In this document: positions 405 through 17,884 of the stretch, piece after piece | How positions within the stretch are numbered: the stretch's first letter is position 1 | Layout: every line of letters begins with the position of its first letter | Notes under the pieces: model-generated | Database searches by the model: none | The model's input: the letters and a program-made list of their open reading frames with translations, nothing else | Told to the model about the DNA's origin: nothing | Made by a program: the position numbers and the translations under genes | Origin: Gemmatimonadota bacterium | Lineage (GTDB): Bacteria; Gemmatimonadota; Gemmatimonadetes; Gemmatimonadales; GWC2-71-9 | DNA length: 64,000 bases | Direction of reading: 5' to 3' | NCBI GenBank assembly: GCA_037440225.1 | Contig: JBBIUN010000017.1 | Span: 4,703-68,702, forward strand

Positions 405-3400
405 ATGCGTAACCCAGTTCGTGCGCTCAGCGCCACGGCGGGGGCGGTGATCGGGCTAGCGGCTTGGGTCTCGTCGCTGGCCGCGCAGGGTGTCACCACC
501 GCCTCGGTGCGAGGGCGGGTCGTGGACGAGCAGGGTGCCCCGGTGGAACAGGTCACCCTGGTGCTGTTGAACACGGCTACCGGCCAGCGTTTCCAGACGG
601 TCTCCCGCGCCGGCGGCTTGTACAACCTCGAGAACGTACCCGTGGGCGGCCCTTACACCCTCACCACCCAGATGATCGGCTTCCAGCCGGTGCGGCGGAC
701 CGACATCGTGCTGCGCCTGGGACAGGCCCTGGACCTCGACATCCGGCTCCAGCGCACTGCGGTGCAGCTGCAGGAAATCGTGGTGACGGCGGTGGAGCAG
801 GACCCCCTCACCAACAAGTCTCGGACCGGTGCTTCGGCCTTCGTCAGCGATACGGCCATCAGCCGCCTGCCCGCCTTCAGTCGCAACTTCACCGAGTTCA
901 TCCAGACGGCCCCCCAAGTCGTGGGAACGTCCGTAGCCGGGCAGAACAACCGGTTCAACAACATCCAGATTGACGGCGGGGTGAACAACGATCTCTTCGG
1001 CCTGGCAGCCAGCGGGGTGCCGGGAGGTCAAGCCGGCGCCCGGCCCATCTCGCTGGAGGCGGTCAAAGAGTATCAGATTCTGATCGCACCCTTCGACGTA
1101 CGGCAAGGCGGATTCACCGGCGGGCTCATCAACGCGGTGACCAAGGCGGGCACCAACGACCTGCACGGGTCGGCCTTCTTCTACTACCAGAACAAGTCGC
1201 TGGTGAGTTCGTTCGTGGACTCGACCGGGACCAAGATCCCCTTGGCCGACTTCAAGCAGGCCCAGTACGGCTTCACCCTGGGCGGCCCGATCGTCCGCGA
1301 CCGGGTGCACTTCTTCGTGGCCACCGACCTCAAGGCCCGCAACGCGCCGTTCTCGGGTATTACCATTGGGCCCGATACCACGGGCGGCAAAGACTCCGCC
1401 GGCGTGGGCATCCGGCAAGCTACGGCCAACCGGGTGCAGCAGATCCTCACGACCAAGTACGGCTTCGATCCGGGTTCGTGGGAGGCGCCCACCCTCAACC
1501 AGCCGGACGCCAACGTGTTCGGCAAGCTGACCGCGCAGTTGGGCACCAACAGCCAGCTCGAAGTCTCGTACAACCGGGTGCAGGCTTCCGACGACAACCT
1601 CATCCGCAACCCCACCGCCACGGGATTCCGCGACGGCTACCAGCTCAGCAACAGCGGCTACGACTTCAAGTCGGTGACCAACACAGTGCGGGCCAAGTGG
1701 AACGCCGCCTTCGGCACCCGACTGTCCAACGAGGTGATCCTGGGCTACCAGCGGGTGCGGGACCACCGCGAGCTGCCCAACCGGGTGCCGCTGATCTTCG
1801 TGGGCGGCGACCGGGCCGGCACCAACATCGCGGCGGGCGCCGAACGATTTTCGCACGACAACCTGCTGAACCAGGACATCTTCGAGGTCACCGATAACCT
1901 CACCCTGGCCTACGGCAGCCACCTGGTGACGGTGGGAACGCACAACGAGTTCTTCCACTTCGAGAACCACTTCTTCCCGGCCTCCCTCGGCGTGTGGTCG
2001 TTCAGGAACGCGGACTCCCTGGAGGCCGGCAAGCCCAACCGCTACGAGCGCGCCCTGCCCGGCACCAACAGCCCCAATGCGCTCTGGAGCGTGCGGCAAG
2101 TGGGCTTGTACGCGCAGGACCAGTGGCGGATCCAGCGCTTTACGCTCACCGCCGGCCTCCGGGCCGATCTGCCGATCCTGGACCGGCCCACCCGCAACCC
2201 GGCCCTGCAGACCGCCCTGCTCATTGACACCCACGCCTTCCCGGCTCACAACATCCTCTGGTCACCCCGACTGGGCTTCAACTGGGACGTGACCGGCAAC
2301 CGCGAAACCGTACTGCGCGGCGGTGTGGGAGTCTTTAGCGGGCGGCCGCCCTACGTATGGGTGTCCAATGCCTTCACCAACACGGGCCAGGAACAGCTTA
2401 CCCTGGTCTGCACCGGCGCCAGCGTCCCGACCTTCACGGTGGACCCCAACGCCCAACCGACCACCTGCGGCGGCGGCGCCGTGGCCCCCACGCCGGCCAT
2501 TGTGTACTTCGATTCCACCTTCAAATTCCCCCAGAACCTGAAGGCGGCCCTGGGCGCCGACTACCGGCTCCCAGGCGACGTGATCGCCACCGTGGACTTC
2601 GTCTATACCCGGTGGCTCAACCAGTTCTACCTCACGGATACCAACCTGGTGGGCCAGGTGGGCACGGCCGCAGGCGAGGGTGGCAGGGTGCTGTACGGCA
2701 CCATCAACCCGGCGACCGGGGCAGCGAGCCCCACGCGCCGCAGTACCAGCTTCAGGGACGTGATCTTCCACCGAAACGAGAGCCAGGACCGCTCCTACAG
2801 CCTGACGCTCCAACTCCAGCGTCGCTTCGGCGGCCTGGAGTTCAGCGGCGGCTACACCTACTCCCGGGTGGAAGACCTGATGTCGCTGACCTCCAGCATC
2901 GCCAACTCGAACCTCAGGTTCGCTACCCTGGACGGCACGCTCTCCCGGCGCAACCTCCGGCGGTCGGTGTTCGATATCCCCCACAAGATCACGGTGAGCG
3001 GTACCGCCACGTTGCCCTTGGACGTGCGGTTCGCCCTGATCTACACCGGCCGGTCCGGCTCGCCGTTCACCTACACCGTCTCCAACGACGCCAACGCCGA
3101 CGGCCTGAGCGGCAATGACCCGGTGTACGTGCCGCGCGACACCAACGACATCACCATGAGCACGGGCGCCAACTTCACCGCCTACAACGCCTATATCAAC
3201 GGCGAGAAGTGCCTGAGGGAGGCGCGCGGAACCATCCTGCGCCGCAATACCTGCCGCAACCCCTGGGTCAACTTCCTGGACGCGCGGCTCACCAAGGTGG
3301 TGCGCACGGTTTCGAACCAATCGCTGGAACTCAACCTGGACGCCTTCAACGTCCTCCGGCTCTTCAAGTTCCTGGACGAGGACCTAGGGCTGGTCCGCCA

Positions 3401-3560
3401 AACCGCGGCCTTCGAAGAGCAGTCGCTGCTGCGCGTGACGGGTTTCGACACGGTGAACAACCGGGCCCGCTACGCCTTCGCTCCCGGCAACCCCAAGGAG
3501 CGGATAGATCCCATCGCCTCGCGCTGGCGGATCCAGTTGGGCGCGCGGTACGTGTTCTAG
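405..3560 (+). CDS. TonB-dependent outer-membrane receptor with N-terminal carboxypeptidase-regulatory-like domain
   Basis: 1051 aa. Signal peptide (…SSLAA|QGV). CarbopepD_reg-like segment (VRGRVVDEQGAPVEQVTLVLLNTATGQRF…GGLYNLENVPVGGPYTL). Plug-like region, long beta-barrel, and a C-terminal …GARYVF aromatic terminus. SD-like gaaggag sits upstream. Confidence 0.8.
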   Translation: MRNPVRALSATAGAVIGLAAWVSSLAAQGVTTASVRGRVVDEQGAPVEQVTLVLLNTATGQRFQTVSRAGGLYNLENVPVGGPYTLTTQMIGFQPVRRTDIVLRLGQALDLDIRLQRTAVQLQEIVVTAVEQDPLTNKSRTGASAFVSDTAISRLPAFSRNFTEFIQTAPQVVGTSVAGQNNRFNNIQIDGGVNNDLFGLAASGVPGGQAGARPISLEAVKEYQILIAPFDVRQGGFTGGLINAVTKAGTNDLHGSAFFYYQNKSLVSSFVDSTGTKIPLADFKQAQYGFTLGGPIVRDRVHFFVATDLKARNAPFSGITIGPDTTGGKDSAGVGIRQATANRVQQILTTKYGFDPGSWEAPTLNQPDANVFGKLTAQLGTNSQLEVSYNRVQASDDNLIRNPTATGFRDGYQLSNSGYDFKSVTNTVRAKWNAAFGTRLSNEVILGYQRVRDHRELPNRVPLIFVGGDRAGTNIAAGAERFSHDNLLNQDIFEVTDNLTLAYGSHLVTVGTHNEFFHFENHFFPASLGVWSFRNADSLEAGKPNRYERALPGTNSPNALWSVRQVGLYAQDQWRIQRFTLTAGLRADLPILDRPTRNPALQTALLIDTHAFPAHNILWSPRLGFNWDVTGNRETVLRGGVGVFSGRPPYVWVSNAFTNTGQEQLTLVCTGASVPTFTVDPNAQPTTCGGGAVAPTPAIVYFDSTFKFPQNLKAALGADYRLPGDVIATVDFVYTRWLNQFYLTDTNLVGQVGTAAGEGGRVLYGTINPATGAASPTRRSTSFRDVIFHRNESQDRSYSLTLQLQRRFGGLEFSGGYTYSRVEDLMSLTSSIANSNLRFATLDGTLSRRNLRRSVFDIPHKITVSGTATLPLDVRFALIYTGRSGSPFTYTVSNDANADGLSGNDPVYVPRDTNDITMSTGANFTAYNAYINGEKCLREARGTILRRNTCRNPWVNFLDARLTKVVRTVSNQSLELNLDAFNVLRLFKFLDEDLGLVRQTAAFEEQSLLRVTGFDTVNNRARYAFAPGNPKERIDPIASRWRIQLGARYVF

Positions 3561-5673: not shown

Positions 5674-6756
5674 TTACGTGGGCGCCCGCTTGACCAGCCA
5701 CAGGCCGGCCCCGCCAAAGATCAAATTCGGCATCCATGCCGCGAGGGTGGAAGGCAACAGCCCGCTCGCACCCACCGCCTTGGACAACTGGACCAGGGTG
5801 AGAAACACCACCGTGATCGCCAGGCTCAGCCCGATGCCGAACGCTCCGCCCGCCCGCGGTGCCGTGAGCGCCAGCGGCGCGCCAAAGACGGCCACCACGA
5901 GACAGGTGAGGGGAATCGCGAGCTTGAGCGCCAAGTCCACTCGGAGCTTCCGGGCATCACCCCCCGAGCGCTCCAGCCACTCGATGTAGCGCTCGAGTTC
6001 GCCGTAACGCATCTCCTCGGGGTCCTTGGGCTCCGCCAGCAGAGCGGCGGGCGTCTCCACCAGGTTGCGCATCCGCATCGAGTCGAAAGCGAACGTGAGC
6101 GCCTCGCCCGGCCCCGGCACGATCCGGAACCGGCCCGCGGCCAGGGTCCAGCGACCCGTCGTGTCCGCGTACGTGCCGCGCTCGGCCTGCACCACCAGCG
6201 TGGGATAGGCCGCGCTGGTCCCCTCCCGCTCCAGCACCGGGTCGCGCATGGCCCGCTCCGGTGCATCCAGGGCGCGGACGGCGTACACCCAGCCTTCATC
6301 CGCCCGATACACGAAGTTGTATCGGCTGGTGATGGAACGAATCTCGCGCTCCCCCAACAGCTCCGCCTGGCGTCGCTTGACGATGGGAGAGACTTCACCC
6401 AGCACGAGCCCCAACAGCGCCGCGAGCCCCGCCGCCACCAGCGCCGGCAGCGCCAGGCGGTGAAAGCTCTGCCCCGAGGCCTTGCCCGCCACCAACTCCG
6501 AGTGCCGGCTCATGCTCCCCACCGTGAACACCGTGGCAAACAGCACCGCGGCCGGCAGGATGAGAAACACCTTTTCCGGCAGACTATAGACGTATCCCAG
6601 CGCGATGGCGGAGGGCGCCAGGCCGCGAGCGAGATACTCGTCCAGCTTGTCGGTTAGTTCCAGGATGATGGCCACCAGCGGGAAGCCGAGCGCGCTGAGC
6701 AGGAAGATCTTGCCCCACTCCCTCAGGAAATAGCGGTCCAGCAATCGCACCCGCAT
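5674..6756 (-). CDS. LptF/LptG (YjgP/YjgQ) family LPS export permease
   Basis: Start trimmed to the ATG at 6756 (MRVRLLDRYFLREWGKIFLL…), a typical family N-terminus. Six TM segments with a periplasmic insert. This ATG shares 1 nt with the upstream gene's TGA (tgatg). Confidence 0.75.
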   Translation of the reverse strand: MRVRLLDRYFLREWGKIFLLSALGFPLVAIILELTDKLDEYLARGLAPSAIALGYVYSLPEKVFLILPAAVLFATVFTVGSMSRHSELVAGKASGQSFHRLALPALVAAGLAALLGLVLGEVSPIVKRRQAELLGEREIRSITSRYNFVYRADEGWVYAVRALDAPERAMRDPVLEREGTSAAYPTLVVQAERGTYADTTGRWTLAAGRFRIVPGPGEALTFAFDSMRMRNLVETPAALLAEPKDPEEMRYGELERYIEWLERSGGDARKLRVDLALKLAIPLTCLVVAVFGAPLALTAPRAGGAFGIGLSLAITVVFLTLVQLSKAVGASGLLPSTLAAWMPNLIFGGAGLWLVKRAPT

Positions 6757-8264
6757 CACGACTGCTCCTGCCTCCGGCCGATCCTCTTCCACCGCCGCCA
6801 GCGCCAGGTCAGGCTGGTGAGCCGCCCGGCGGCCAGGGGCCGGCGAAGCTGCCATAGACCCACGAGTCCGATCGCCGTGAACAACACGTTCGGCGTCCAC
6901 ATGGCCCAGAACGCGGGAATGATGAGGCGGTTGGCCAGCGACTCGCCGCCGATCAGTCCCACGTAGTAGATGGTGAACACCACCAGGCTCACCCCGATGA
7001 CGAACCCCGTCCCGCCGCCCGCAAATCGAACCGCGGCCGGCACTCCCACCAGCACGAACACGATGCAGGCCGCCGCGATGGCGTACTTCTTGTGGAGTTC
7101 CACGAGGTAGTTGGCCGCCCGGATCTCGGCGCTCCGCTCCCGGTCCCGCCAGGTCAACAGGTCGGGCAGCCGCGGGCGCTCGAGCTTCCCCGTGGTAAAA
7201 GCCCGCCGGCCCGGCTCGTTGAACCGCTCCAGCATGGCGCTATCTGGCCTGCTGGGTGGGCGGCGGCGCTCCTGGGCTCTGAGTTCCAGCGGCAAGAGCC
7301 CGGCGGCCACCCGCCGCAACAGCTTGCAGTAGGGACTGTAGTCCCCCAGAGGGACTACCGTATCCGGCGCCACCGGCTGAAGCCCGACCAGCGCCCGGAC
7401 CCCGTTGTCCCGCGCCGCCCGGTTGCGCCGCGCCGAGATCTCGGCCTCCCGGCGCGCCGTCCGGATGATGTGCTCCATTTCGCAAATCCCCATCTCCCGG
7501 TCGCCCTTGTAGTCATCTTCGGCAGTCCGGGTCAGCACGTTCCCCACCCCTTCCACCCGGATCACGTTGCGCCGGAACTGCGCCTGCTGGAACGTCCGGG
7601 CGTCGCTCCGGCTCAGCTCGTGCAGCACGCCGTCGTACAGCGTGAGATAGAGCACCTCCTGGTCGGGCGAGAGCGCCATCCGGCCGCTATCGGCATAGAT
7701 GATCCGCTTGCGGTCCTGGTCCGAGAGGTCGTAGATCGTCACGTCCCGCAGGGCGAAGGTGGATTGGTTGATCCGGGCCGCGCGCAGGAAGAACCGGTTG
7801 CGCTGCACCTCGTTGATCGCCTGCTCCTTGAGCGAGAAGGTGGGCTTCTTGCGGCTGATGTCGGTCAGCAAGGTGCGGAGCCGGTGGTTGGAACGGGGTA
7901 ACACTTGGTCGCTGAACAACAGGGCCAGCACCGCGAGCCCGGTGGCCGCGGCGAGCAGAGGGGCCATGATCCGGCCGAGGGAGACCCCGCCCGCCTGCAT
8001 GGCCGCGAGCTCGTGCTCGGCGGCCAGCCGGCTGACCGCATACAACACCGCCATGAGCACGGCCATGGACAAAGTCGTGGTGACGATGAAGGGTATGGAG
8101 AGGGCAAAAACCTCGACGATGACGCTCCACGGCAGGCCTTTGCCCACCAGATCGCCGAAACGGCGCGCAATTTGGTTCAGCAACTGGAACGCCGTGAGCG
8201 CCGAGAGGGCAAACACGAATGGAACCAGGTGCTGCTTGAGAAGGTACCGGCTCAGAATGCGCAT
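6756..8264 (-). CDS. LptF/LptG (YjgP/YjgQ) family LPS export permease with enlarged periplasmic domain
   Basis: Start trimmed to the ATG at 8264 (MRILSRYLLKQHLVPFVFALSALTAF…). The 249 upstream codons of the 751-aa track ORF are Gly/Arg-rich antisense of the neighbouring gene. Confidence 0.75.
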   Translation of the reverse strand: MRILSRYLLKQHLVPFVFALSALTAFQLLNQIARRFGDLVGKGLPWSVIVEVFALSIPFIVTTTLSMAVLMAVLYAVSRLAAEHELAAMQAGGVSLGRIMAPLLAAATGLAVLALLFSDQVLPRSNHRLRTLLTDISRKKPTFSLKEQAINEVQRNRFFLRAARINQSTFALRDVTIYDLSDQDRKRIIYADSGRMALSPDQEVLYLTLYDGVLHELSRSDARTFQQAQFRRNVIRVEGVGNVLTRTAEDDYKGDREMGICEMEHIIRTARREAEISARRNRAARDNGVRALVGLQPVAPDTVVPLGDYSPYCKLLRRVAAGLLPLELRAQERRRPPSRPDSAMLERFNEPGRRAFTTGKLERPRLPDLLTWRDRERSAEIRAANYLVELHKKYAIAAACIVFVLVGVPAAVRFAGGGTGFVIGVSLVVFTIYYVGLIGGESLANRLIIPAFWAMWTPNVLFTAIGLVGLWQLRRPLAAGRLTSLTWRWRRWKRIGRRQEQS

Positions 8265-8333
8265 GGCGGGACGTAGGCGCGTTGGCGTATCCTCCGGCGG
8301 GTCAGTATAGCCTACCCCGCCCCCGGCTCGAAA

Positions 8334-11300
8334 GTGTCGCTCCTGGTTCTGGCATGGCTGGCCGCCACCCCCGCCACCCCCGCCACCCCCGCGAGGTCCG
8401 CGAGCGCGTGGGGTGCTCCCTCCGCCGTGGCGGACACCTCCCTCCTGGCCGGCAGCGCCGAGGCGGCTGCGCGGCGCTGGGCGGAGGAGATCCGGGCCTG
8501 GATCCAGGCCCGCCGTCGCCAGCGCTGGACCCTGGCCGGCGGCCAGGCCGATCGCCCGAGCCCTCCGGCCGGCAACCCCGCCGGCCAGCAGCAGGCGGGA
8601 TTGGCCGAGCTGGGCATCCAGTTCCGCGGCCGCTTCGAACTCAAGCTCGACCGCCTGCGCAACCAGCGTTGCAGCGCGGCGGACATCGGCAACCCCGTAA
8701 CCGGCTGCGCGCCCGGCTTCCCCACCCCGTTCCTGGACCAGCAGTTCAGCCTCCGCGCCGGCGGCGTGGTGAGCCAGCGCATCCACCTCGACCTGGACTA
8801 CGACAGCCAGCGCGAGTTCAGCGCCAACAACGACCTGCGCGTCTGGTACCAGGGAGCAGAAGGAGACTTCCTCCAGCGGGTGGCGATCGGCAACGTCACT
8901 CTCCAGGCGCCGGCCTCCCGGTTCATCACCGCCGGAATTCCGGCCAATTCGTTCGGCGTAGAGGCCCAAGCCCGGATGGGCAACCTGGAACTCACCACGG
9001 TGGTGGCCCAACAGCGGGGCTCCGCCTTGCGCACCAGGGTGTTCACCCTGGGCGACCGGGTCAGCCAGCCTGTCGCCTTCGAGCTGAGGGACCTCGACTT
9101 CGAACCCGGCCGGTTTTTCTTCGTGATCGATCCCCGGGCGATCCCGGGTTATCCCAACCTCGACGTCCTGAACCTAGCGGCTGTGCCGCTGGCGCCTGCA
9201 CGTACGCCCGTCGCCGTTCGGGTGTACCGGCTCCGGGCCTTGGGCGGGACCGCAGGCGCGAATCCTAACTTGGGAGGCATCAATGCCGTGGCCCTCCGGC
9301 GCGACAGTCCACAACGCGTGGGCCCGCTCCCCTGGGAACTGCTCATCGAGGGCCGGGACTACTACCTCGACCCTTCCGGCCTCTGGTTCGCCCTGGCGGC
9401 GCGCGTCGGCACCGAGGATTTCCTGGCCGTCTCCTACGTGACCGCTGCGGGAGATACCATCGGCACGTTTCCCGATGCCGGCCGCGGTCGGGCCGACACC
9501 CTGGAATTGATCTACGAGCCGCGCCGCGGACCCGAGGTGCCGACCTTCGCCTACGAGATGCGCAACGTCTATCGCCTAGGCGGGCCCGAGATCGACCGCG
9601 CCTCGTTAGATCTGACCATCGTGCTCAACCAATCGGAACGCCCCCTCGGAGCCGGGGCCACCTACCTCGACGCCTTGGGACTCGCCGCCTCGGGCAACCC
9701 GTCGGCCCTGGACCACTACAACCGGGTCTTCCCGCGCGAGCGCGACCCCAACGGCGGCGCTCCGGTACGCGATCTGTTCCTGGTGTTCCCTCATCTTGAG
9801 CCCTTTGCCGATTCCCTGCGCCTCACCGCCGCCGAGCGCAACGACTCGCTCTACCGCACCCCCGTGTACCTGATCCAGTCCCAGGGACCCGCACCGCGCT
9901 TTCGGCTCCGGCTGCGCTACGAGACCACAGGCGGCGGTGACCGCACCGCGCTCAATCTGGGCGCCCTCCAGGTGCGCGAGGGGAGCGAGCGGATCTTCCT
10001 CGGCGACCGGCAACTGGTCCGGGGGCGGGACTACGAGATGTTTTACGACGTGGGCCAGGTGACGTTCCTCAACCCGCAAGCACTGGCGGTCGAACCCGGT
10101 ACCCAGGTGCGGGTCCAGTTCGAAGAGAACCAGATCTTTGACGTGGCCCCCAAGACCATCGCCGGCCTCGCGGGCACCTACCGGCTCGGCGCCGCGGGAT
10201 ATCTCAACGCCCTGGGACTCTTCCAGCAAGAGCAAAGCGTCTTCACCCGGCCCCAGTTGGGCTTCGAACCCCGCACCCACTTGATCGGCGGGCTCAGCGG
10301 GGACCTGGGCTTCGAGTCCGCCGGCCTCAGCCGGGCCCTGGATCGCCTGCCTTTGCTCCGCGCCAGCGGCCCCTCCTCGCTCCGGGTGAGCGGCGAGGTG
10401 GCGCTCTCCCAACCGAATGCCAACCAAGCCGGCACCGCCTACGTCGAAGAGTTCGAAGGAGCGAGCGGCAGCCGCGCGATCTCCTTGAACGAGCAAGCCT
10501 TCCAATGGGGAAGCCGCCCCTCCTCCGGGCGGGGCCTGCCGGCCAGCCTCCTGGCACCGGACGGAAGCTTCGACCCCAAGAACGCGGTCCCGTTGGTCTG
10601 GCAGAACGGGGTGGAAATCGGTGGCCGGCCGCTCGAGTTCGAGCCGCGGGACATTGACTCGAGCATCGCCTTGACCGGCACCGCCCGCCAGCTCGAACGG
10701 GTCTTGTGGCTCTCGCTCAAGCCCGACACCGTGGGTGGAGCCCCTCATCCGCTTACCGGTCAACCCCGCTGGCTCCGCCCTCACCGGCCGGGCCCGCGCT
10801 GGCGCTCCATCACCCAGGCTCTCGATCGCGCCGGCCTGGGAGTGGACCTCTCCGCGGTGGAATTCTTGGAGTTCTGGGTGCTGGAAGACGAGGCCCGAAC
10901 GGCCGCGGCGAGCGGTACTACCCTGGTGCTGGACTTCGGCACCGTGTTCGAGGACGCCGTCGCTCCTGCCCCGGACTCCTTCCGCGTGGTGGGCGCGGAC
11001 ACCGTCTTCACCGGCCTGCAATTCGTGGGGCAGGGACGGCTGGATACCGAAAAAGACTCCCTCACCAACGTCTTCAACGCCTCCGCCAACGACCTGGGCA
11101 TCCTCGGCGACCGCCCGGACTCCTTGACCGAGGCCGGCACCGGCCGCGTGGTCCGTTCGCTGCCCCTGTGCCACGGCACGCTCGCCACCACCCTCCCCAT
11201 CTTCCCGCTCGGTGACCTGGCGGCTCGCTGCACCAGGGGCAACGGCCTCTTGGACACCGAAGACTTGAACGGCGACAACCGCCTGGACCTCACGGTAGGC

Positions 11301-14300
11301 GGTCTCGCCGAAGACGCAATCCGCTACGTCTTCCCGATCGGCAATAGCCGGTACTTCGTTCGGCAAGGGGGCAGCACCACGGACGCCACCGGCCGCCGCT
11401 TCACCTGGCGGCTCTATCGCGTGCCCTTCCGCCGGGATTCCCTGCTCCTGGGCCGGCCCGATTTGCGCCACGTCCGAGCCCTCCGCCTTACGGTGGTGGC
11501 GCCCGAACAGAGCGGCCCGGCCACCGATGTGGTGTTCGCGCTGGCTCGCATGCGTCTGGTAGGCGCGCCATGGCTCAAACGCGCCGCCACCCCCTTGGCG
11601 GGTCTCGCCGGAAGCGAAGCCCAGCCCCACGGCGAAGTCACCGCATCCACCGTCAGCACCGACAACCAAGAGCTGGGTTACACCCCGCCGCCGGGCGTGC
11701 TGGACCAAGCCGACCGCCGCGGTGCAGCCCTGCAATTCACCACGCAGCAGATCAATGAGCACGCCTTGCGGCTCGTGGCCCGCGACCTGCGCTTGGGGGA
11801 GCGCGCCGAGGCGTTTACCCGCTTCGTGCTGGAAGGCGATCGCAGCTTCCTCAAGTACCGCCAGCTCAGAGTGTGGGCCCAGGGGCGCGGGGCGGGCTGG
11901 GACAGCGGGGACCTCGAGTTCTTCGTCAAGGCCGGCACCGACGAGCACAATTTCTACCTCTATCGCACCCGCCGCGCCGCCGGTACCTGGGAGCCGGAAA
12001 TCGTGGTGGACCTGGCTCGCTGGATCGCCCTGCGCGGCCAGATCGAAGCGCGGTGGTTGGCTGGAGAGCCGCCCGCCGGCGCCGCCCAGTGCGGCGGCGA
12101 CTCCACCGCCTACGTGGCGTGCGACGGCCCCTACCTGGTCCAGGTCCGTGACCCCGCCGTAGCCCCCCCGAACCTGGCTCGCGTCTCGGAAGTGGCCGCC
12201 GGTATCTATCGCGCCGCCGCCAACACCCCGGCGGACCCCGTCGAGGTATGGGTGGATGACATCCGCCTGGGCGACGTGGTCAATCGTGCAGGCTTGGCCG
12301 CTGCGCTGGACGCCCGCTTCACCGCCGCCGACGTGGCCGAAGTGGCCCTGAGCTTCTCCCGGCGGGACGACCAGTTCCGCCAGCTCGAAGAGGACCCGCG
12401 CTACGTGACCGACGCCAACGCCCGGCTCGCCGGCACCCTACGCCTGGAAAAATTCCTGCCTCCCGCGTGGGGGGTCGCCCTGCCCCTCCGCGTGACTCAC
12501 CAACGCGCCGCGGCCGAGCCCTTCTACCTGCTCGAGACGGATGTGCCCGCAGGCGCGGTTCGAGACCTCAGGCGGCCCCGCAACACGTCAACCACCCTAG
12601 AGTTCAGTTTCCGGCGCACCGGCCGCGGCGGCGGGCTCCTCCCGAGCCTGCTCCTCGATCCGCTGGCGATCTCCGGATTCCTGCGCCACGGCGATGCCCG
12701 AGCCGAACGCTGGAGCACCAGCACCCGCGACCGCCGGCTGCGAGCGGACTATTCCTATGCGCCGGCTCCCGTGGCCATCAACGCGGCCCCCGCGTTCTTG
12801 CTGCGGCTCCTCGACGGCCTGCCGGGCTGGCTCCGCGAGAGCGAATTCGCCCGCTCCCTGAGAAACGCGCGCCTTAGGCTCAATCCCGCGCAGATCCGGC
12901 TCCAGTCCAGCCTGGTGGATGACGACACGCGGCGATTCACCTTCCGCCTCCCGGTGAGCCTTGCCGCCGACAGCCTGGTCCATCCCTCGCCCAGCCTGTT
13001 CCACCGCTGGACCAACCAGGCTGGGTTGGAACTGAAGCCCTTCGAGACCCTGAGCCTGAGCGCCGCCTGGAGCAGCATGCGCGACCTCCAAGATTACGGG
13101 GACACCAGCACCGTGGCCCGCTTGCTCCGGGGCGACCGGGCGAGGCTCCTGGGTCGCGACGTGGGGTTCGAACGCCAGCGCTCGCTGAACACCAGCCTCG
13201 ACTTGGCACCAAGGCTGAGTTCCTGGCTCAAACCCCGCCTGGCCTTGAGCACCGGCTTCAGCCTGGTGCGCGATCCGAGCCAGCGCAGGGCGGTGGTCAC
13301 CGCGACCGATTCCGCCGTCCCCCTGGCTGCCGCTAACGTCTGGCGCCGGCAACTGGGCGCCGGATTGGACTTGGCCCGCCTGGCGCGGGGCGGGCTGCTG
13401 GGCGGACTCATCGGCGCCCTGCTGCCGGCCGACATCTCCGTCACCACCGAAAGGCGGTCCAACTTCGATCGGCTGGCTGCCGGGCCGGCAGTGCGGTACC
13501 AGTTGGCCCTGGGGCCGTTCGAGGCATTCCGCCAGCAGGACAGCACCCTCGCCGCCACGGCTGCTCACACCCAAACCGTGGCGGCGGCCGGCGGCGCGCG
13601 CTTGCCCCTGGGCCTGAGCATCCGCGCCTCCTATCGCGAGAGCGACGCGACCACCTGGGTGCGGCAGGGCGAAGCCCAGGTCCCCTTGCTGCAGCACAGC
13701 CGGGAATGGCCCTCGGGTTCCTTCTCGTGGAACGTCCGCCCCACGGGCGCACTGGGCCGTGCCATCGCCCGCCTGGAGGCCCAAGCCCAATACCGCGCCA
13801 GCCGGACCACCCTCGAACAGGGCCTGGCTGCGGGATCCGGGCTGCCGGCCGTCACCGACAGCCGCCTGCGTTTCTTCGCGCCATCGGTGGCCGTGACCTT
13901 GAGCGGCGGAGTGACGACGGGTGCCCAGTACAGTTACAGCGTGAGCGATCTCACCGCCGCCGGGAACACCACCCGCAACGAGCGTGCCGAAGCGGCGGGG
14001 AACCTGCGCTTTGCTTTTCACGCCCCGCGCTCGCTGGTACGCCTGCCGGCTCCCATCCGCGCCACGATTTCGGCTTCGACTTCGGACGCCAGGGCGTGCC
14101 TGCGCCCCGCAGGGGAACCGCTCTGCCTCCCGGTGGCGGACAGCCGGCGGCGCCAGGCAGACGTCAGGCTGGATACCGGTGTCGCAGCCGCGGTCGTGGC
14201 CGGGGCGAGTTTCAGCTACATTCTGACCGACCAAAGACACCTCTCGAGCCGCTTCGAGCAGTACGTGTTCACGGTGTTTGCGGAGATCAACTTCCTGGCG

Positions 14301-14315
14301 GGACGGGCTCCATGA
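8334..14315 (+). CDS. Giant (1993 aa) SprA-like outer-membrane protein (T9SS translocon family, tentative)
   Basis: The segment FLQRVAIGNVTLQAPASRFITAGIPANSFGVEAQARMGNLELTTVVAQQRGS resembles, from memory, the conserved SprA N-terminal motif (GNVS…L..G.Q.LFG…L.FG.L..T.V.S.Q.S). The rest is long beta-rich sequence, and the C-terminal …FAEINFLAGRAP is OMP-like. The exact start is uncertain (first GTG at 8334). Confidence 0.55.
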   Translation: MSLLVLAWLAATPATPATPARSASAWGAPSAVADTSLLAGSAEAAARRWAEEIRAWIQARRRQRWTLAGGQADRPSPPAGNPAGQQQAGLAELGIQFRGRFELKLDRLRNQRCSAADIGNPVTGCAPGFPTPFLDQQFSLRAGGVVSQRIHLDLDYDSQREFSANNDLRVWYQGAEGDFLQRVAIGNVTLQAPASRFITAGIPANSFGVEAQARMGNLELTTVVAQQRGSALRTRVFTLGDRVSQPVAFELRDLDFEPGRFFFVIDPRAIPGYPNLDVLNLAAVPLAPARTPVAVRVYRLRALGGTAGANPNLGGINAVALRRDSPQRVGPLPWELLIEGRDYYLDPSGLWFALAARVGTEDFLAVSYVTAAGDTIGTFPDAGRGRADTLELIYEPRRGPEVPTFAYEMRNVYRLGGPEIDRASLDLTIVLNQSERPLGAGATYLDALGLAASGNPSALDHYNRVFPRERDPNGGAPVRDLFLVFPHLEPFADSLRLTAAERNDSLYRTPVYLIQSQGPAPRFRLRLRYETTGGGDRTALNLGALQVREGSERIFLGDRQLVRGRDYEMFYDVGQVTFLNPQALAVEPGTQVRVQFEENQIFDVAPKTIAGLAGTYRLGAAGYLNALGLFQQEQSVFTRPQLGFEPRTHLIGGLSGDLGFESAGLSRALDRLPLLRASGPSSLRVSGEVALSQPNANQAGTAYVEEFEGASGSRAISLNEQAFQWGSRPSSGRGLPASLLAPDGSFDPKNAVPLVWQNGVEIGGRPLEFEPRDIDSSIALTGTARQLERVLWLSLKPDTVGGAPHPLTGQPRWLRPHRPGPRWRSITQALDRAGLGVDLSAVEFLEFWVLEDEARTAAASGTTLVLDFGTVFEDAVAPAPDSFRVVGADTVFTGLQFVGQGRLDTEKDSLTNVFNASANDLGILGDRPDSLTEAGTGRVVRSLPLCHGTLATTLPIFPLGDLAARCTRGNGLLDTEDLNGDNRLDLTVGGLAEDAIRYVFPIGNSRYFVRQGGSTTDATGRRFTWRLYRVPFRRDSLLLGRPDLRHVRALRLTVVAPEQSGPATDVVFALARMRLVGAPWLKRAATPLAGLAGSEAQPHGEVTASTVSTDNQELGYTPPPGVLDQADRRGAALQFTTQQINEHALRLVARDLRLGERAEAFTRFVLEGDRSFLKYRQLRVWAQGRGAGWDSGDLEFFVKAGTDEHNFYLYRTRRAAGTWEPEIVVDLARWIALRGQIEARWLAGEPPAGAAQCGGDSTAYVACDGPYLVQVRDPAVAPPNLARVSEVAAGIYRAAANTPADPVEVWVDDIRLGDVVNRAGLAAALDARFTAADVAEVALSFSRRDDQFRQLEEDPRYVTDANARLAGTLRLEKFLPPAWGVALPLRVTHQRAAAEPFYLLETDVPAGAVRDLRRPRNTSTTLEFSFRRTGRGGGLLPSLLLDPLAISGFLRHGDARAERWSTSTRDRRLRADYSYAPAPVAINAAPAFLLRLLDGLPGWLRESEFARSLRNARLRLNPAQIRLQSSLVDDDTRRFTFRLPVSLAADSLVHPSPSLFHRWTNQAGLELKPFETLSLSAAWSSMRDLQDYGDTSTVARLLRGDRARLLGRDVGFERQRSLNTSLDLAPRLSSWLKPRLALSTGFSLVRDPSQRRAVVTATDSAVPLAAANVWRRQLGAGLDLARLARGGLLGGLIGALLPADISVTTERRSNFDRLAAGPAVRYQLALGPFEAFRQQDSTLAATAAHTQTVAAAGGARLPLGLSIRASYRESDATTWVRQGEAQVPLLQHSREWPSGSFSWNVRPTGALGRAIARLEAQAQYRASRTTLEQGLAAGSGLPAVTDSRLRFFAPSVAVTLSGGVTTGAQYSYSVSDLTAAGNTTRNERAEAAGNLRFAFHAPRSLVRLPAPIRATISASTSDARACLRPAGEPLCLPVADSRRRQADVRLDTGVAAAVVAGASFSYILTDQRHLSSRFEQYVFTVFAEINFLAGRAP
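8364..8390 (+). repeat. Perfect 9-bp tandem repeat (gccaccccc x3)
   Basis: Read directly. It encodes (ATP)x3 in the 5' end of the SprA-like ORF, and lies 100-126 bp from the divergent lptF-like start. Confidence 0.9.
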
Positions 14316-15223
14316 GCAGGGAACGCACGGCCGGCATCCTGGTCCTCGCCGCACTGGGGTGCGGCGCCAGTTCCTGGTTTTCGCGCAAGGAATTCGATGG
14401 CGAGCAGGCCATGGCGTACGTGACCGCCCAGCTCGCCTTCGGTCCCCGGATTCCCAACACGGAAGGCCACCGGCGGGCCGGCGATTGGATCCTCGAGCAA
14501 CTGCGCGCCCGAGCCGACTCGGTCGAGGTCCAGGCGTTCAGCCACGTTACCGCGGCGGGCGACACGTTGCGGCTGCGGAACTTCATCGCCCACTTCCTGC
14601 CGAATCGCCCCGATCGGGTCTTGTTCCTCGCCCACTGGGACACGCGGCCTCGGGCCGATCGCAGTCCCAATCCTGCGGACCGGGAGCGGCCGGTGCCCGG
14701 CGCCAACGACGGGGCTTCCGGCGTCGCCGTGCTGTTGGGCCTGGCCGACGCGCTCAAGCGCCGACCCCCGGCGGTCGGGGTGGATTTGCTGTTCGTGGAC
14801 GGCGAGGACTATGGAGATTTCTCCACCATGACCGACGTGCTGCTGGGCTCGCGTCACTATGCCTCCACGCTCAGCCCGGATCGCCGCCCGCTCTTTGCCG
14901 TGCTGTTCGACATGGTGGGCGATCGAGACCTCCAGTTCCTTCAGGAGGGCTATTCCGTCGAGCGGGCTCCGGAGGTGGTCGAGCGGGTCTGGGCCAAGGC
15001 CCGGGAACTGGGGTACCAGGGTTACTTCCGCCCCACCGTGGGCGGCGGCATCACCGACGACCACATTCCCTTGCTGGATGCGGGCGTGCGGGCGATAGAC
15101 GTGATAGACCTGGACTACGGTCCCAGCAACAGCTACCACCACACGGTCGAGGACACCGAAGACAAACTCAGCGCCAAGAGCCTGCAAGTGGTTGGCGAGG
15201 TGGCCCTGGCGTTGGTCCGCTAG
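14312..15223 (+). CDS. M28-family zinc enzyme, glutaminyl-peptide cyclotransferase-like lipoprotein
   Basis: ATG 14312 overlaps the SprA-like stop (ATGA). Lipobox-like LAALGC. Motifs AHWDTRP, GANDGASGVAVLLGLA, FVDGEDYG, FDMVGD and DDHIPLLDAGVRAIDVID…YHHTVEDT are shared by M28 aminopeptidases and type II glutaminyl cyclases. Confidence 0.6.
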   Translation: MSRERTAGILVLAALGCGASSWFSRKEFDGEQAMAYVTAQLAFGPRIPNTEGHRRAGDWILEQLRARADSVEVQAFSHVTAAGDTLRLRNFIAHFLPNRPDRVLFLAHWDTRPRADRSPNPADRERPVPGANDGASGVAVLLGLADALKRRPPAVGVDLLFVDGEDYGDFSTMTDVLLGSRHYASTLSPDRRPLFAVLFDMVGDRDLQFLQEGYSVERAPEVVERVWAKARELGYQGYFRPTVGGGITDDHIPLLDAGVRAIDVIDLDYGPSNSYHHTVEDTEDKLSAKSLQVVGEVALALVR

Positions 15224-15414
15224 CCAGGGGGGGGCCCACCGCGGGCTTCGCCTCCGTCGCCTGGCGCAGGGATTGCAATCCGGCATTGATCCGCTAGCGA
15301 GGGGGTCGAACCCTGAGGGCAGGTGTCCGCCCGCAGGCCGGCGCGGCGCTCGTCTGTACCATCGCGCAATGGATTGATACCGCTGACCGGCCCTCGGCGC
15401 GGTAACGTGATCTC

Positions 15415-16116
15415 GTGCCCAGCTCCGATGATCGCCGGGCGGCCGCGCTGTTGTTGCTCCTGGCGGCCGCCGGGCTGGTGGTGCGTTTCTGGCAGGCGCC
15501 GGCGAATGCTCCGGGGGCGGTGGCCTATCGTGCGCCCGCCGCCCGGCCCGAGCAGGATTCGGTGGCCGCGCGGGCCCAGCGCCTGGCTCGCCCCCTGGCC
15601 AGCGGCGAACGCGTTGATCTCGATCGGGCGCCCGCCGAGGAGCTGGCTCGACTGCCTCACATTGGGCCGGCGCTGGCAGCCCGGATCGTGCAGGATCGCG
15701 AGGAACACGGGCCCTTCGGCTCTCTGGAGGCGCTGGATCGGGTGCCGGGTGTAGGACCCACCGTCCTGCGCGCGGTCCGCCCCCACGCCGCGTTTTCAGG
15801 TTCGCGCCAAGGACCGGTGGTTCCGGCCTCGCCCGAAGGCGGCTCTCCTCTGATCGGGCCCCCGGCGCCGCCGGCCGGCAAGAGGGAACTAGGGGGTGTC
15901 TCGCAGCGAGGGCTCCGCCGGGGTCTCGATCTCAACACCGCTTCGCAGGCGGAACTCGAAGCGCTGCCCGGCATCGGACCGGCGCTGGCGAAAGCCATCC
16001 TGGCGGAGCGCGCGGCCGGAGGGCCGTTCCGTTCGCTCGAGGATCTTGGGCGTCGGGTCCGGGGCATCGGCCCCCGCATGCTGGAGGCGTTGCGGGGCCG
16101 TGTCGCGGCGCCTTGA
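15415..16116 (+). CDS. comEA: ComEA-like DNA-binding protein with two helix-hairpin-helix modules and an N-terminal membrane anchor
   Basis: Anchor AAALLLLLAAAGLVV. Two copies of the D(L)xxAxxxEL..LP.IGPALA..I…GPF.SLE.L…V.G.GP..L module. Confidence 0.7.
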   Translation: MPSSDDRRAAALLLLLAAAGLVVRFWQAPANAPGAVAYRAPAARPEQDSVAARAQRLARPLASGERVDLDRAPAEELARLPHIGPALAARIVQDREEHGPFGSLEALDRVPGVGPTVLRAVRPHAAFSGSRQGPVVPASPEGGSPLIGPPAPPAGKRELGGVSQRGLRRGLDLNTASQAELEALPGIGPALAKAILAERAAGGPFRSLEDLGRRVRGIGPRMLEALRGRVAAP

Positions 16117-16177
16117 CACCATGGAGGGCTCCGGTACTTTCCCATTTGAGTAGCCATTCCACCCTGCCAGGACCTCT

Positions 16178-17884
<1,707 letters not shown>

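What the first reader, a model, noticed from the sequence alone, without database searches (positions are those of the whole stretch)
8334..15223. SprA-like 1993-aa protein translationally coupled (ATGA) to a glutaminyl-cyclase-like M28 lipoprotein
The giant ORF carries a segment (…VAIGNVTLQAPASRFITAGIPANSFGVEAQARMGNLELTTVVAQQRGS…) that I recognise as resembling the conserved N-terminal motif of SprA, the T9SS translocon barrel. Its stop overlaps the start of an M28-fold lipoprotein whose motifs (FVDGEDYG, DDHIPLL…YHHTVEDT) fit type II glutaminyl cyclases as well as aminopeptidases. In Bacteroidota, T9SS cargo and many Sec substrates carry N-terminal pyroglutamate made by a lipoprotein glutaminyl cyclase. 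I do not know of a described direct genetic coupling between a SprA homolog and such an enzyme. No porV/porK-N-like genes are seen in this window.
Basis: partly seen in the sequence, partly recalled or inferred. Interest (0 to 1): 0.7.

Follow-up and report, generated by a model that had tools for sequence, protein, structure and literature searches.

The report
SprA translocon coupled to glutaminyl cyclase
In this Gemmatimonadota genome, the gene for the giant outer-membrane secretion channel SprA overlaps by four bases the gene for a lipoprotein enzyme that most likely caps exported proteins with pyroglutamate, and this undescribed pairing is kept in 78 of 80 related species and recurs in two other phyla.

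Summary
ORF 8334-14315 (1993 aa) is a SprA/Sov homologue: TIGR04189 scores 512.6 bits against a cut-off of 200. ORF 14312-15223 (303 aa) starts inside the sprA stop codon (ATGA).

The second protein is a lipoprotein with an invariant Cys17. By sequence (E 1e-59) and predicted fold (TM 0.85-0.89) it groups with the bacteroidal type II glutaminyl cyclases, not with aminopeptidases. It keeps the cyclase-type D-G and E-D motifs.

- **Adjacency within the phylum:** 78 of 80 Gemmatimonadota species genomes have sprA directly upstream of this gene. In 60 of them the stop and start overlap by four bases.
- **Adjacency outside the phylum:** the same pairing occurs in Krumholzibacteria and Calditrichota. 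It is absent in a Bacteroidota-MAG lineage and in Armatimonadota.
- **Likely substrates:** exported Gemmatimonadota proteins, including 48 of 51 SprA orthologues, begin with Gln after the signal peptide. This looks like the "Q-rule", so far described for Bacteroidetes.

The most likely reading is a co-translated operon of an outer-membrane translocon and a general periplasmic pyroglutamate-forming enzyme. I found no paper describing this link.

Three things remain untested: enzyme activity, a complete T9SS in this phylum, and any physical SprA-cyclase contact.

The parts
8334..14315 (+). sprA/sov homologue, 1993 aa (GTG start; no earlier start codon after the in-frame stop at 8274-8276)
   Evidence: TIGR04189 scores 512.6 bits (cut-off 200) and Pfam SprA_N 54 bits. 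PDB 6H3I SprA matches at E 1e-33. The same gene call appears in GCA_037441545.1.
8334..8408 (+). Putative SprA signal peptide (MSLLVLAWLAATPATPATPARSASA|WGAPS). It is atypical, with no basic n-region and Trp rather than Gln after the likely cleavage site.
   Evidence: Translation. The same N-terminus is found in a 97%-identical relative. Most orthologues instead end ...AxA|Q.
8880..9026 (+).
   Evidence: It aligns with F. johnsoniae SprA residues ~220-268.
14312..14315 (+). ATGA stop/start overlap (sprA TGA, cyclase ATG), a translational-coupling junction
   Evidence: Sequence. The same 4-nt overlap occurs in 61 of 78 scored junctions across Gemmatimonadota.
14312..15223 (+). Type II (bacteroidal-type) glutaminyl cyclase-like M28 lipoprotein, 303 aa
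   Evidence: Pfam Peptidase_M28 109 bits. PDB QCs match at E 1e-59 to 1e-51. The AF2 model (pLDDT 80) gives TM 0.85/0.89 to PgQC, and all top 50 matches are QCs.
14312..14362 (+). Lipoprotein signal peptide ending in the lipobox Cys17 (LAALG-C)
   Evidence: Cys17 is invariant in 16 aligned Gemmatimonadota homologues. A Cys at the same place is seen in nearly all 78 loci.
14708..15145 (+). Catalytic core: D133-G134 (= PgQC D149-G150), E165-D166 (= E182-D183), D200 (= D218), D249-D250-H251 (= D267-D268-H269), H277 (= H299)
   Evidence: Residue-by-residue alignment to PgQC 7cje/6qql. All of these residues are invariant in alignment A1.
5674..8264 (-). lptG (5674-6759) and lptF (6756-8264), divergent from sprA across a 69-nt spacer. 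This is context only. The same divergent lptFG|sprA-QC arrangement occurs in Krumholzibacteria.
   Evidence: Pfam LptF_LptG. Gene calls in L119, L121 and L130.
15415..16116 (+). comEA-like helix-hairpin-helix protein with an N-terminal membrane anchor. It is the next gene, 191 nt after the cyclase, and is followed by pilB, pilT and pilC. It may or may not belong to the same transcript.
   Evidence: Pfam HHH_3 124 bits. It is conserved just downstream of the cyclase in >=31 loci. The antisense ORF 15220-15786 has no family hit and is a shadow ORF.

Best explanation
sprA and the downstream gene form a two-gene, translationally coupled unit. Ribosomes finishing the 1993-aa SprA homologue terminate on a TGA that sits inside the ATG of the next gene, so the lipoprotein is made whenever SprA is made. 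The overlap is shown; the coupling itself is inferred.

Both products are exported by Sec. [quoted passage not shown] The second protein is a lipid-anchored, periplasm-facing, single-zinc type II glutaminyl cyclase of the bacteroidal kind.

The cyclase converts the N-terminal glutamine that signal peptidase I exposes on exported proteins into pyroglutamate. This is inferred from homology and catalytic-residue conservation. In Porphyromonas gingivalis the modification protects envelope and secreted proteins from degradation (literature).

Its clients are general. Outer-membrane and periplasmic proteins of Gemmatimonadota start with Gln after the signal peptide, and SprA itself does so in most species (shown at sequence level on a small sample).

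The linkage is old. It is kept across Gemmatimonadota and recurs in Krumholzibacteria and Calditrichota. It therefore ties the 'Q-rule' maturation step genetically to the T9SS translocon in the FCB superphylum, most likely as co-expression of envelope-biogenesis functions rather than as an obligatory complex.
For: **Identity of the two genes**
- SprA identity is supported.
- Cyclase identity: PDB QCs match at E 1e-59 to 1e-51, against about 1e-9 for aminopeptidases. The fold search returns only QCs in the top 50, with TM 0.85-0.89 to PgQC and TfQC.
- The zinc ligands and catalytic residues D133, D166, H277, E165, D200 and D249/D250 are conserved. So are Q74, R102, R112, P113, D116 and D158, which match bacteroidal-QC hallmark residues (PMC7948796).
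- The lipobox Cys is invariant.

**Coupling and its conservation**
- The ATGA overlap is confirmed.
- 78 of 80 species loci have sprA directly upstream, with SprA 40-71% identical to the window protein.
- 61 of 78 junctions overlap by 4 nt, 6 by 1 nt, and 6 have gaps of 1-2 nt.
- Outside the phylum, Krumholzibacteria L121 and L130 and Calditrichota L122 have sprA followed by the QC. TIGR04189 scores 483 bits for L121 and 822 bits for L122.
- The Calditrichota locus also carries PorV and Por_Secre_tail genes.

**Substrates**
- 48 of 51 SprA orthologues have a (-3,-1)-rule cleavage site followed by Gln.
- Other exported proteins do the same: window OMP 'SSLAA|QG', the AstE-like protein 'AGVA|QQ', two L008 proteins, and L056 'PASA|QT'.

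**General rather than SprA-specific role**
- Locus L019 keeps lptGF|QC-comEA-pilB but has lost sprA.
- P. gingivalis QC acts on 77% of signal peptidase I substrates and is essential (PMC10653852).
Against: - No enzymology exists for any Gemmatimonadota homologue.
- Three pocket residues conserved in characterised QCs are not kept. PgTrp193 is V176. PgTrp298 is H276 in this window, although it is Trp in most of the phylum. The loop carrying PgPhe294 is shortened. The model is poor exactly there, with pLDDT below 50 for residues 269-277.
- This window's own SprA lacks Gln after its signal peptide.
- The Q-rule sample is small: about 7 signal peptidase I substrate families from syntenic loci, judged with a home-made heuristic. 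The OMP family keeps its N-terminal Gln in very diverse, unassigned metagenome contigs of 31-71% GC, so it may not be independent evidence.
- No other T9SS gene lies in the 64 kb, so the T9SS role of this SprA is inferred by homology only.
- The membrane that anchors the lipoprotein is unknown.
- The adjacency is dispensable. It is absent in P. gingivalis (PG2157-2159 operon, PMC10653852), in a Bacteroidota-MAG lineage, and in L019 and L044.
Confidence: 0.6

Rival explanations
1. The cyclase-like lipoprotein is a dedicated accessory of the SprA translocon. It would either dock physically on SprA or be needed specifically to mature SprA or T9SS cargo, rather than serving as a general envelope enzyme.
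For: The 4-nt overlap is unusually tight and well conserved, which implies linked expression. The adjacency recurs in three phyla. SprA itself carries Gln at +1 in 48 of 51 orthologues. T9SS components and cargo are among the most Q-rich classes in P. gingivalis, at 86% (PMC10653852).
Against: L019 keeps the cyclase in the same locus after losing sprA. Non-T9SS proteins (OMP, AstE-like peptidase, TonB-type receptor) also start with Gln. In P. gingivalis the QC is an inner-membrane enzyme acting on most signal peptidase I substrates and is not encoded next to sov (PMC10653852, PMC7948796). [quoted passage not shown] This window's SprA has no Gln at +1 yet keeps the coupling.
Confidence: 0.2
2. 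The adjacency is inherited synteny without functional meaning. Two envelope genes became neighbours in an FCB ancestor, and the short overlap merely persists in compact, high-GC genomes.
For: The downstream partners differ between phyla: comEA-pil, rimP-nusA-infB and prmA-ppx. The link has been lost repeatedly without obvious cost (PMC10653852). ATGA overlaps are common in GC-rich bacteria; lptG and lptF overlap the same way here.
Against: The junction is retained while SprA has diverged to 40% and the cyclase to 58% identity. It survives across three phyla where all other neighbours changed. The two functions meet in the same pathway, Sec export followed by outer-membrane or secreted proteins.
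Confidence: 0.13
3. The M28 protein is an ordinary di-zinc periplasmic aminopeptidase, as public records annotate it ('M28 family peptidase'), and has nothing to do with pyroglutamate.
For: All five aminopeptidase metal-ligand positions are occupied by H, D, E/D, D and H. NCBIfam gives only weak aminopeptidase/DapE hits, and there is no QC model in that library. The QC pocket residues Trp193, Phe294 and Trp298 are not conserved in this window.
Against: Bona fide QCs keep the same five positions (PMC5837995). Sequence and fold rank QCs far above aminopeptidases. The D-G and E-D motifs are the QC states (PMC7948796). PDB entries first deposited as aminopeptidases (3tc8, 4fuu, 3gux) were shown or argued to be QCs (PMC7948796). 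The genomes show the substrate signature, Gln at +1.
Confidence: 0.07

Closest known systems
[quoted passage not shown]
   Same: It matches the equivalog model TIGR04189 above its trusted cut-off. It is a giant protein of about 2000 aa. The conserved N-terminal motif and the central region align to the solved SprA.
   Different: It is 1993 aa against 2403 aa and shows only remote pairwise similarity (E 1e-33). It comes from Gemmatimonadota, where no T9SS has been studied. No porK/L/M/N, porV, porU or CTD-cargo genes lie in the 64-kb window. Its signal peptide is atypical.
Bacteroidal type II glutaminyl cyclases (PgQC PG2157, TfQC, PiQC, BtQC, PdQC)
   Same: It has the same fold (TM 0.85-0.89) and is 36-38% identical over the structural alignments. 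It is a lipoprotein. It shares the Asp/Asp/His zinc ligands, including the bacteroidal-specific Asp in the E-D pair, the D-G pair, and the catalytic Glu/Asp residues. The genomes carry Gln-after-signal-peptide substrates.
   Different: It belongs to another phylum. Pocket residue PgTrp193 is Val, Trp298 is His in this clade, and the Phe294 loop is shortened. It is encoded overlapping sprA, whereas PgQC is the first gene of PG2157-PG2158-hemG (PMC10653852).
The Bacteroidetes Q-rule (Bochtler et al. 2018; Szczesniak et al. 2023)
   Same: Exported proteins expose Gln at +1 after signal peptidase I cleavage in a genome that encodes a lipoprotein QC. Outer-membrane and T9SS proteins are prominent among them.
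   Different: The rule was described as specific to Bacteroidetes and not general to the FCB group, and Gemmatimonadetes were not analysed. Here the signature appears in Gemmatimonadota and, in passing, in other QC-bearing phyla. Those papers noted a phylogenetic coincidence of T9SS and Q-rule but no genetic link.
Di-zinc M28 aminopeptidases (Streptomyces griseus SgAP, Vibrio/Aeromonas AAP, Bacillus YwaD)
   Same: It belongs to the same Pfam family (PF04389), has the same alpha/beta fold, and keeps equivalent metal-ligand positions.
   Different: These match about 50 orders of magnitude worse than QCs, and none appears in the top 50 fold matches. Aminopeptidases have Asn or Asp after the bridging Asp and an E-E pair. 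This protein has Gly and E-D.

Membership tests
SprA/Sov (TIGR04189, T9SS outer-membrane translocon) | Sequence match to the curated equivalog model above its trusted cut-off | tested here: met
   512.6 bits against a cut-off of 200, in 3 stretches. Pfam SprA_N scores 54 against 27.
SprA/Sov (TIGR04189, T9SS outer-membrane translocon) | Homology to the structurally solved SprA, including the conserved N-terminal motif | tested here: met
   6H3I matches at E 1e-33. The N-terminal motif aligns to residues 171-295 of SprA.
SprA/Sov (TIGR04189, T9SS outer-membrane translocon) | Giant 36-strand beta-barrel architecture | not tested
   The size fits (1993 aa), but the protein exceeds the 1200-aa limit of the structure tool, so no model was made.
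Type IX secretion system (as a system) | Co-occurrence with the other core genes (porK/gldK, porL, porM, porN, porV, porT, porU/Z, sprE) | not testable with these tools
   None were found among the window genes scanned or in the +/-10 kb of the 80 related loci. Whole genomes could not be fetched. The literature only says a T9SS 'may be present' in Gemmatimonadetes (PMC11285876).
Type IX secretion system (as a system) | Cargo proteins with a C-terminal sorting domain (Por_Secre_tail/TIGR04183) | tested here: inconclusive
   No such domain appears in the window proteins scanned. It is present next to the sprA-QC pair in the Calditrichota locus L122.
Bacteroidal type II glutaminyl cyclase | M28 alpha/beta fold closest to solved QCs rather than to aminopeptidases | tested here: met
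   phmmer gives E 1e-59 to 1e-51 for QCs and about 1e-9 for aminopeptidases. The Foldseek top 50 are all QCs, with TM 0.85-0.89.
Bacteroidal type II glutaminyl cyclase | Zinc ligands Asp149/Asp183/His299 (PgQC numbering) and catalytic Glu182, Asp218, Asp267/268 | tested here: met
   The equivalents are D133, D166, H277, E165, D200 and D249/D250. All are invariant in 16 homologues.
Bacteroidal type II glutaminyl cyclase | Gly after the first Asp ligand (D-G; aminopeptidases have Asn or Asp), which is linked to loss of the second zinc site | tested here: met
   D133-G134 is invariant (criterion from PMC7948796). The actual zinc stoichiometry is not testable here.
Bacteroidal type II glutaminyl cyclase | Substrate-pocket residues Trp193, Phe294 and Trp298 | tested here: not met
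   Trp193 is V176, invariant in the phylum. The Phe294 loop is shortened. Trp298 is H276 in this window and its closest relatives, but Trp in most Gemmatimonadota.
Bacteroidal type II glutaminyl cyclase | N-terminal lipoprotein signal with lipobox Cys | tested here: met
   The sequence is LAALG-C17, and the Cys is invariant. Which membrane anchors it is not testable.
Bacteroidal type II glutaminyl cyclase | Measured glutaminyl cyclase activity | not testable with these tools
   This needs recombinant enzyme.
Q-rule organisms | Most signal peptidase I substrates expose Gln at +1 (Q-value above about 50%) | tested here: inconclusive
   48 of 51 SprA orthologues and about 6 of 7 distinct signal peptidase I substrate families in the window plus 80 loci have Gln at +1. 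The sample is small and syntenic, the predictor is heuristic, and there was no genome-wide run.

The most novel reading that the evidence does not exclude
The type IX translocon and the pyroglutamate (Q-rule) maturation system arose or were fixed together in an ancestor of the FCB superphylum as one lptFG|sprA-QC module, and they remain mechanistically linked. For example, the cyclase might act at or on SprA, or N-terminal pyroglutamate might be needed for assembly or use of the translocon. The well-studied Bacteroidota would then be the derived state in which the two genes drifted apart.
Probability: 0.15. Interest if true: 0.8.

Novelty: new variant of a known kind. Interest (0 to 1): 0.6.

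Why it matters
Bochtler et al. (2018) noted a "striking phylogenetic coincidence" between T9SS and the Q-rule, but found no mechanistic connection and treated the rule as specific to Bacteroidetes.

A stop/start-overlapping sprA-cyclase pair gives the first genetic link between the two systems. It is kept in 78 of 80 Gemmatimonadota species and is present in Krumholzibacteria and Calditrichota.

The finding also extends the likely range of the Q-rule beyond Bacteroidota and suggests the pairing is ancestral in the FCB group.

Finally, it offers a simple experimental handle: uncouple or delete the downstream gene in a cultivable Gemmatimonas and look at SprA, the outer-membrane proteome and N-termini. 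As a practical by-product, thousands of "M28 family peptidase" annotations in these phyla are probably glutaminyl cyclases.

Tried and rejected
1. **Convergent downstream gene.** I first took the antisense ORF 15220-15786 as a convergent gene closing the operon. It has no family hit. The conserved gene there is the + strand comEA-like ORF 15415-16116, so I rejected the antisense ORF as a shadow ORF.

2. **Zinc-ligand counting.** I dropped this as a way to separate QC from aminopeptidase, because QCs keep all five positions (PMC5837995).

3. **Metagenome scan with the window OMP.** The aim was to enlarge the signal-peptide sample. Only one close relative came back. The family keeps an N-terminal 'QGVTT' in very diverse, unassigned contigs, so I did not count it as independent Q-rule evidence.

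4. **First signal-peptide heuristic.** It picked cleavage sites 1-5 residues off in Ala-rich c-regions. I replaced it by asking whether any (-3,-1)-rule site is followed by Gln.

5. **Promoter and terminator scan.** The scan of 8100-16300 found nothing above shuffled expectation. It says nothing about operon limits in this GC-rich genome.

6. **Supplements of Bochtler 2018.** I searched them for Gemmatimonadetes, Ignavibacterium and Fibrobacter Q-values. Nothing was held as text.

7. **Other T9SS genes in Gemmatimonadota.** I could not test for them.


Full report
**Observation**

The window is GC-rich (about 68%). Its closest protein relatives are all from Gemmatimonadota.

ORF 8334-14315 (+) encodes 1993 aa from the first possible start codon after an in-frame stop at 8274-8276. 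The next gene starts at ATG 14312, inside the sprA TGA at 14313-14315, and ends at 15223 (303 aa). A 97%-identical public genome (GCA_037441545.1) has the same two gene calls and the same 4-nt overlap.

**The large protein**

It exceeds the trusted cut-off of the NCBIfam equivalog model for the T9SS translocon Sov/SprA: TIGR04189 scores 512.6 bits against 200. It also hits Pfam SprA_N and the solved F. johnsoniae SprA at E 1e-33.

Its barrel architecture was not modelled because the protein is too long for the structure tool.

**The small protein**

It is a Peptidase_M28 domain protein whose best PDB relatives are the bacterial type II glutaminyl cyclases. These are T. forsythia 6qro (E 1.9e-59), Bacteroides and Parabacteroides 3gux and 3tc8, P. 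gingivalis 6qql/7cje (E 3e-51) and B. thetaiotaomicron 4fuu. True aminopeptidases score about 1e-9.

An AlphaFold model built on 16 homologues (pLDDT 80, pTM 0.83) was searched against the PDB. All 50 best matches are glutaminyl cyclases, with TM 0.85/0.89 to PgQC.

I mapped the protein onto PgQC numbering using the criteria of Taudte et al. 2021 (PMC7948796).

- **Zinc ligands:** D133 (= D149), D166 (= D183, the Asp that is specific to bacteroidal QCs) and H277 (= H299).
- **Catalytic residues:** E165, D200 and D249/D250.
- **D-G pair:** aminopeptidases have D-N or D-D here.
- **Hallmark residues:** Q74, R102, R112, P113, D116 and D158.

All of these are invariant in the phylum alignment.

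Three features are not conserved.

- PgTrp193 is V176.
- The PgPhe294 loop is shortened.
- PgTrp298 is H276 in this window and its nearest relatives, but Trp in most others.

The model is also unreliable in residues 269-277.

QCs retain all five positions (PMC5837995), and this protein does too. Cys17, in a lipobox-like LAALGC, is invariant.

**Is the adjacency conserved?**

I scanned one genome per GTDB species with an alignment of the cyclase. The scan found 342 relatives, and the best 80 loci were kept. All 80 belong to Gemmatimonadota by sequence and synteny (two record titles say otherwise), at 58-75% identity.

tblastn with SprA found sprA directly upstream on the same strand in 78 of the 80. 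Of these, 59 are full length and 40-71% identical to the window SprA. All but one of the remaining 19 are cut by contig ends.

Counting the window, 78 junctions could be scored:

| Junction | Number |
|---|---|
| 4-nt overlap (ATGA/GTGA) | 61 |
| 1-nt overlap (TGATG) | 6 |
| Gap of 1-2 nt | 6 |
| Larger spacing | the rest |

Five of the six junctions with a 1-2 nt gap also carry an in-frame ATG that overlaps the stop.

There are two exceptions. L019 keeps the flanking synteny lptG-lptF | QC-comEA-pilB but has no sprA. L044 has the cyclase in another context.

**Beyond the phylum**

An exhaustive HMMER search of 1.84 billion cluster representatives found 4758 homologues. A profile of 14 of the more distant ones retrieved named proteins from other phyla. 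Their genomic contexts were as follows.

| Lineage and locus | Arrangement |
|---|---|
| Krumholzibacteria, GCA_030630165.1 (L121) | lptF/G divergent, then a 2173-aa SprA (TIGR04189, 483 bits) overlapping the cyclase, then rimP-infB |
| Unnamed long contig with the same arrangement as L121 (L130) | Same, with sprA split into three ORFs |
| Calditrichota, GCA_013150955.1 (L122) | 2082-aa SprA (822 bits), 266 nt, cyclase, prmA, ppx; PorV and Por_Secre_tail genes nearby |
| Bacteroidota-MAG lineage (L123; L124, L128, L129 share its synteny) | QC-prmA(-ppx), no sprA |
| A 36%-GC genome (L125) | No sprA |
| Armatimonadota (L126) and two similar unnamed contigs (L127, L131) | No sprA |

In P. gingivalis the QC heads the PG2157-PG2158-hemG operon (PMC10653852). 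The pairing therefore spans at least three FCB phyla and has been lost in others.

**Do these organisms have the substrates?**

Bochtler et al. (2018) showed that most signal peptidase I substrates of Bacteroidetes expose Gln, which PgQC cyclises. They described this as not general to the FCB group and did not analyse Gemmatimonadetes.

In the window plus the 80 loci, 48 of 51 SprA orthologues with a recognisable signal peptide have a (-3,-1)-rule site followed by Gln, for example ...PVAA|QQD...PLVA|QEP and ...LRA|QGD.

The other clear signal peptidase I substrates found also have Gln at +1: the window OMP (SSLAA|QG), the AstE-like protein (AGVA|QQ, and AAAA|QE in L008), a TonB-type receptor (IIRA|QE), a 383-aa protein (PASA|QT) and a 202-aa protein (SAVG|QA). 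PilQ does not.

This window's own SprA does not either (…ARSASA|WGAPS), and the same N-terminus is found in its close relative.

The sample is small and heuristic, and the OMP family keeps Gln in very diverse, unassigned contigs. I therefore treat the Q-rule in Gemmatimonadota as likely but not established. Similar A|Q signal peptides appear in the Calditrichota, Bacteroidota-MAG and Armatimonadota loci.

**Surroundings**

- Upstream and divergent lie lptF and lptG.
- Downstream on the same strand are a comEA-like gene, then pilB, pilT and pilC.
- Further downstream are pilS/pilR-type regulators, pilins and pilMNOQ.
- No T9SS gene other than sprA was found.
- Promoter and terminator scans were uninformative.

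**Interpretation**

The best-supported model is a translationally coupled sprA-QC unit. The second product is a general, lipid-anchored periplasmic glutaminyl cyclase that matures Sec-exported proteins, SprA included in most species.

- **Shown:** the identities by homology, the overlap and its conservation, and the Gln signature.
- **Inferred:** the coupling itself, enzyme activity, zinc stoichiometry, the anchoring membrane, and the T9SS function of this SprA.

The rivals are a dedicated SprA accessory (0.2), meaningless inherited synteny (0.13) and a plain aminopeptidase (0.07).

**Novelty**

SprA homologues in Gemmatimonadetes have been mentioned before (PMC11285876). Type II QCs outside Bacteroidota have been crystallised from Fimbriiglobus and Acidobacteriales.

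I found no paper linking SprA or T9SS genes to a QC gene, and none extending the Q-rule to Gemmatimonadota. The finding is a new genetic arrangement of two known kinds, of moderate to high interest to T9SS and envelope-biogenesis specialists.

Noticed in passing
window 8334-8450; L119 4023-4200: This window's SprA, and that of its 97%-identical relative, has an atypical signal peptide. It has no basic n-region, a Thr/Pro-rich c-region, and Trp instead of the Gln found after the cleavage site in 48 of 51 orthologues.
   Followed up: partly
window 15137-15142 (codons H276-H277): The residue equivalent to PgQC Trp298, conserved in all characterised type II QCs, is His in this window and its closest relatives (SYHHT). 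It is Trp in most other Gemmatimonadota (YWHT). Whether this changes substrate binding is unknown.
   Followed up: partly
L019 7234-13391: A lower-GC (57%) Gemmatimonadales MAG keeps lptG-lptF | QC-comEA-pilB but has no sprA between lptF and the cyclase. This looks like a clean loss or relocation of the translocon gene.
   Followed up: partly
L025 6534-9971: In this complete chromosome (CP070792.1) tblastn finds only the C-terminal 1100 residues of SprA upstream of the cyclase. The N-terminal half is missing, frameshifted or much more divergent.
   Followed up: no
window 5674-8264 (-); L121 72-1472; L130 686-3212: lptF/lptG sit divergently next to sprA-QC both in Gemmatimonadota and in Krumholzibacteria. 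An LPS-export / translocon / cyclase neighbourhood is thus kept across phyla.
   Followed up: partly
L122 10001-12731; L123, L124, L128, L129 around 10001-12900: QC-prmA(-ppx) synteny is shared by Calditrichota, where sprA lies upstream, and a Bacteroidota-MAG lineage, where it does not. This suggests an older sprA-QC-prmA-ppx order. Multihaem cytochromes with T9SS C-terminal sorting domains lie nearby in the latter lineage.
   Followed up: no
L122, L123, L124, L126, L128 (gene N-termini listed): Signal peptides ending A|Q are also frequent in the few exported proteins near the cyclase gene in Calditrichota, the Bacteroidota-MAG lineage and even Armatimonadota. The Q-rule may track this cyclase clade well outside Bacteroidota.
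   Followed up: no
window 15415-47406: There is a long type IV pilus / competence cluster on the + strand directly after the cyclase. It comprises comEA-like, pilB, pilT, pilC, a PilS-like kinase, sigma-54 response regulators, several prepilins, pilM/N/O, a secretin pilQ, and an 808-aa lipoprotein (44980-47406) with no Pfam hit.
   Followed up: partly
window 15220-15786 (-): A 188-aa antisense ORF with coding-like GC3 overlaps the QC-comEA spacer and comEA. It has no family hit and is not conserved as a gene, so it is a GC-rich shadow ORF that could mislead gene callers.
   Followed up: yes
window 405-3560; L081-L118: The CarboxypepD_reg/OMP beta-barrel protein family keeps a mature N-terminus 'Q(G/V/E)(V/T)TT' in metagenome contigs of 31-71% GC. 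Its N-terminal Gln is therefore a family trait.
   Followed up: partly
L122 10001-10140: As called, the Calditrichota cyclase has no lipobox Cys in its N-terminus (MKTIFQVLLVLVAGIGDIPAEPPP). It may be a signal peptidase I substrate or membrane-anchored differently, unlike the Gemmatimonadota and Krumholzibacteria lipoproteins.
   Followed up: no
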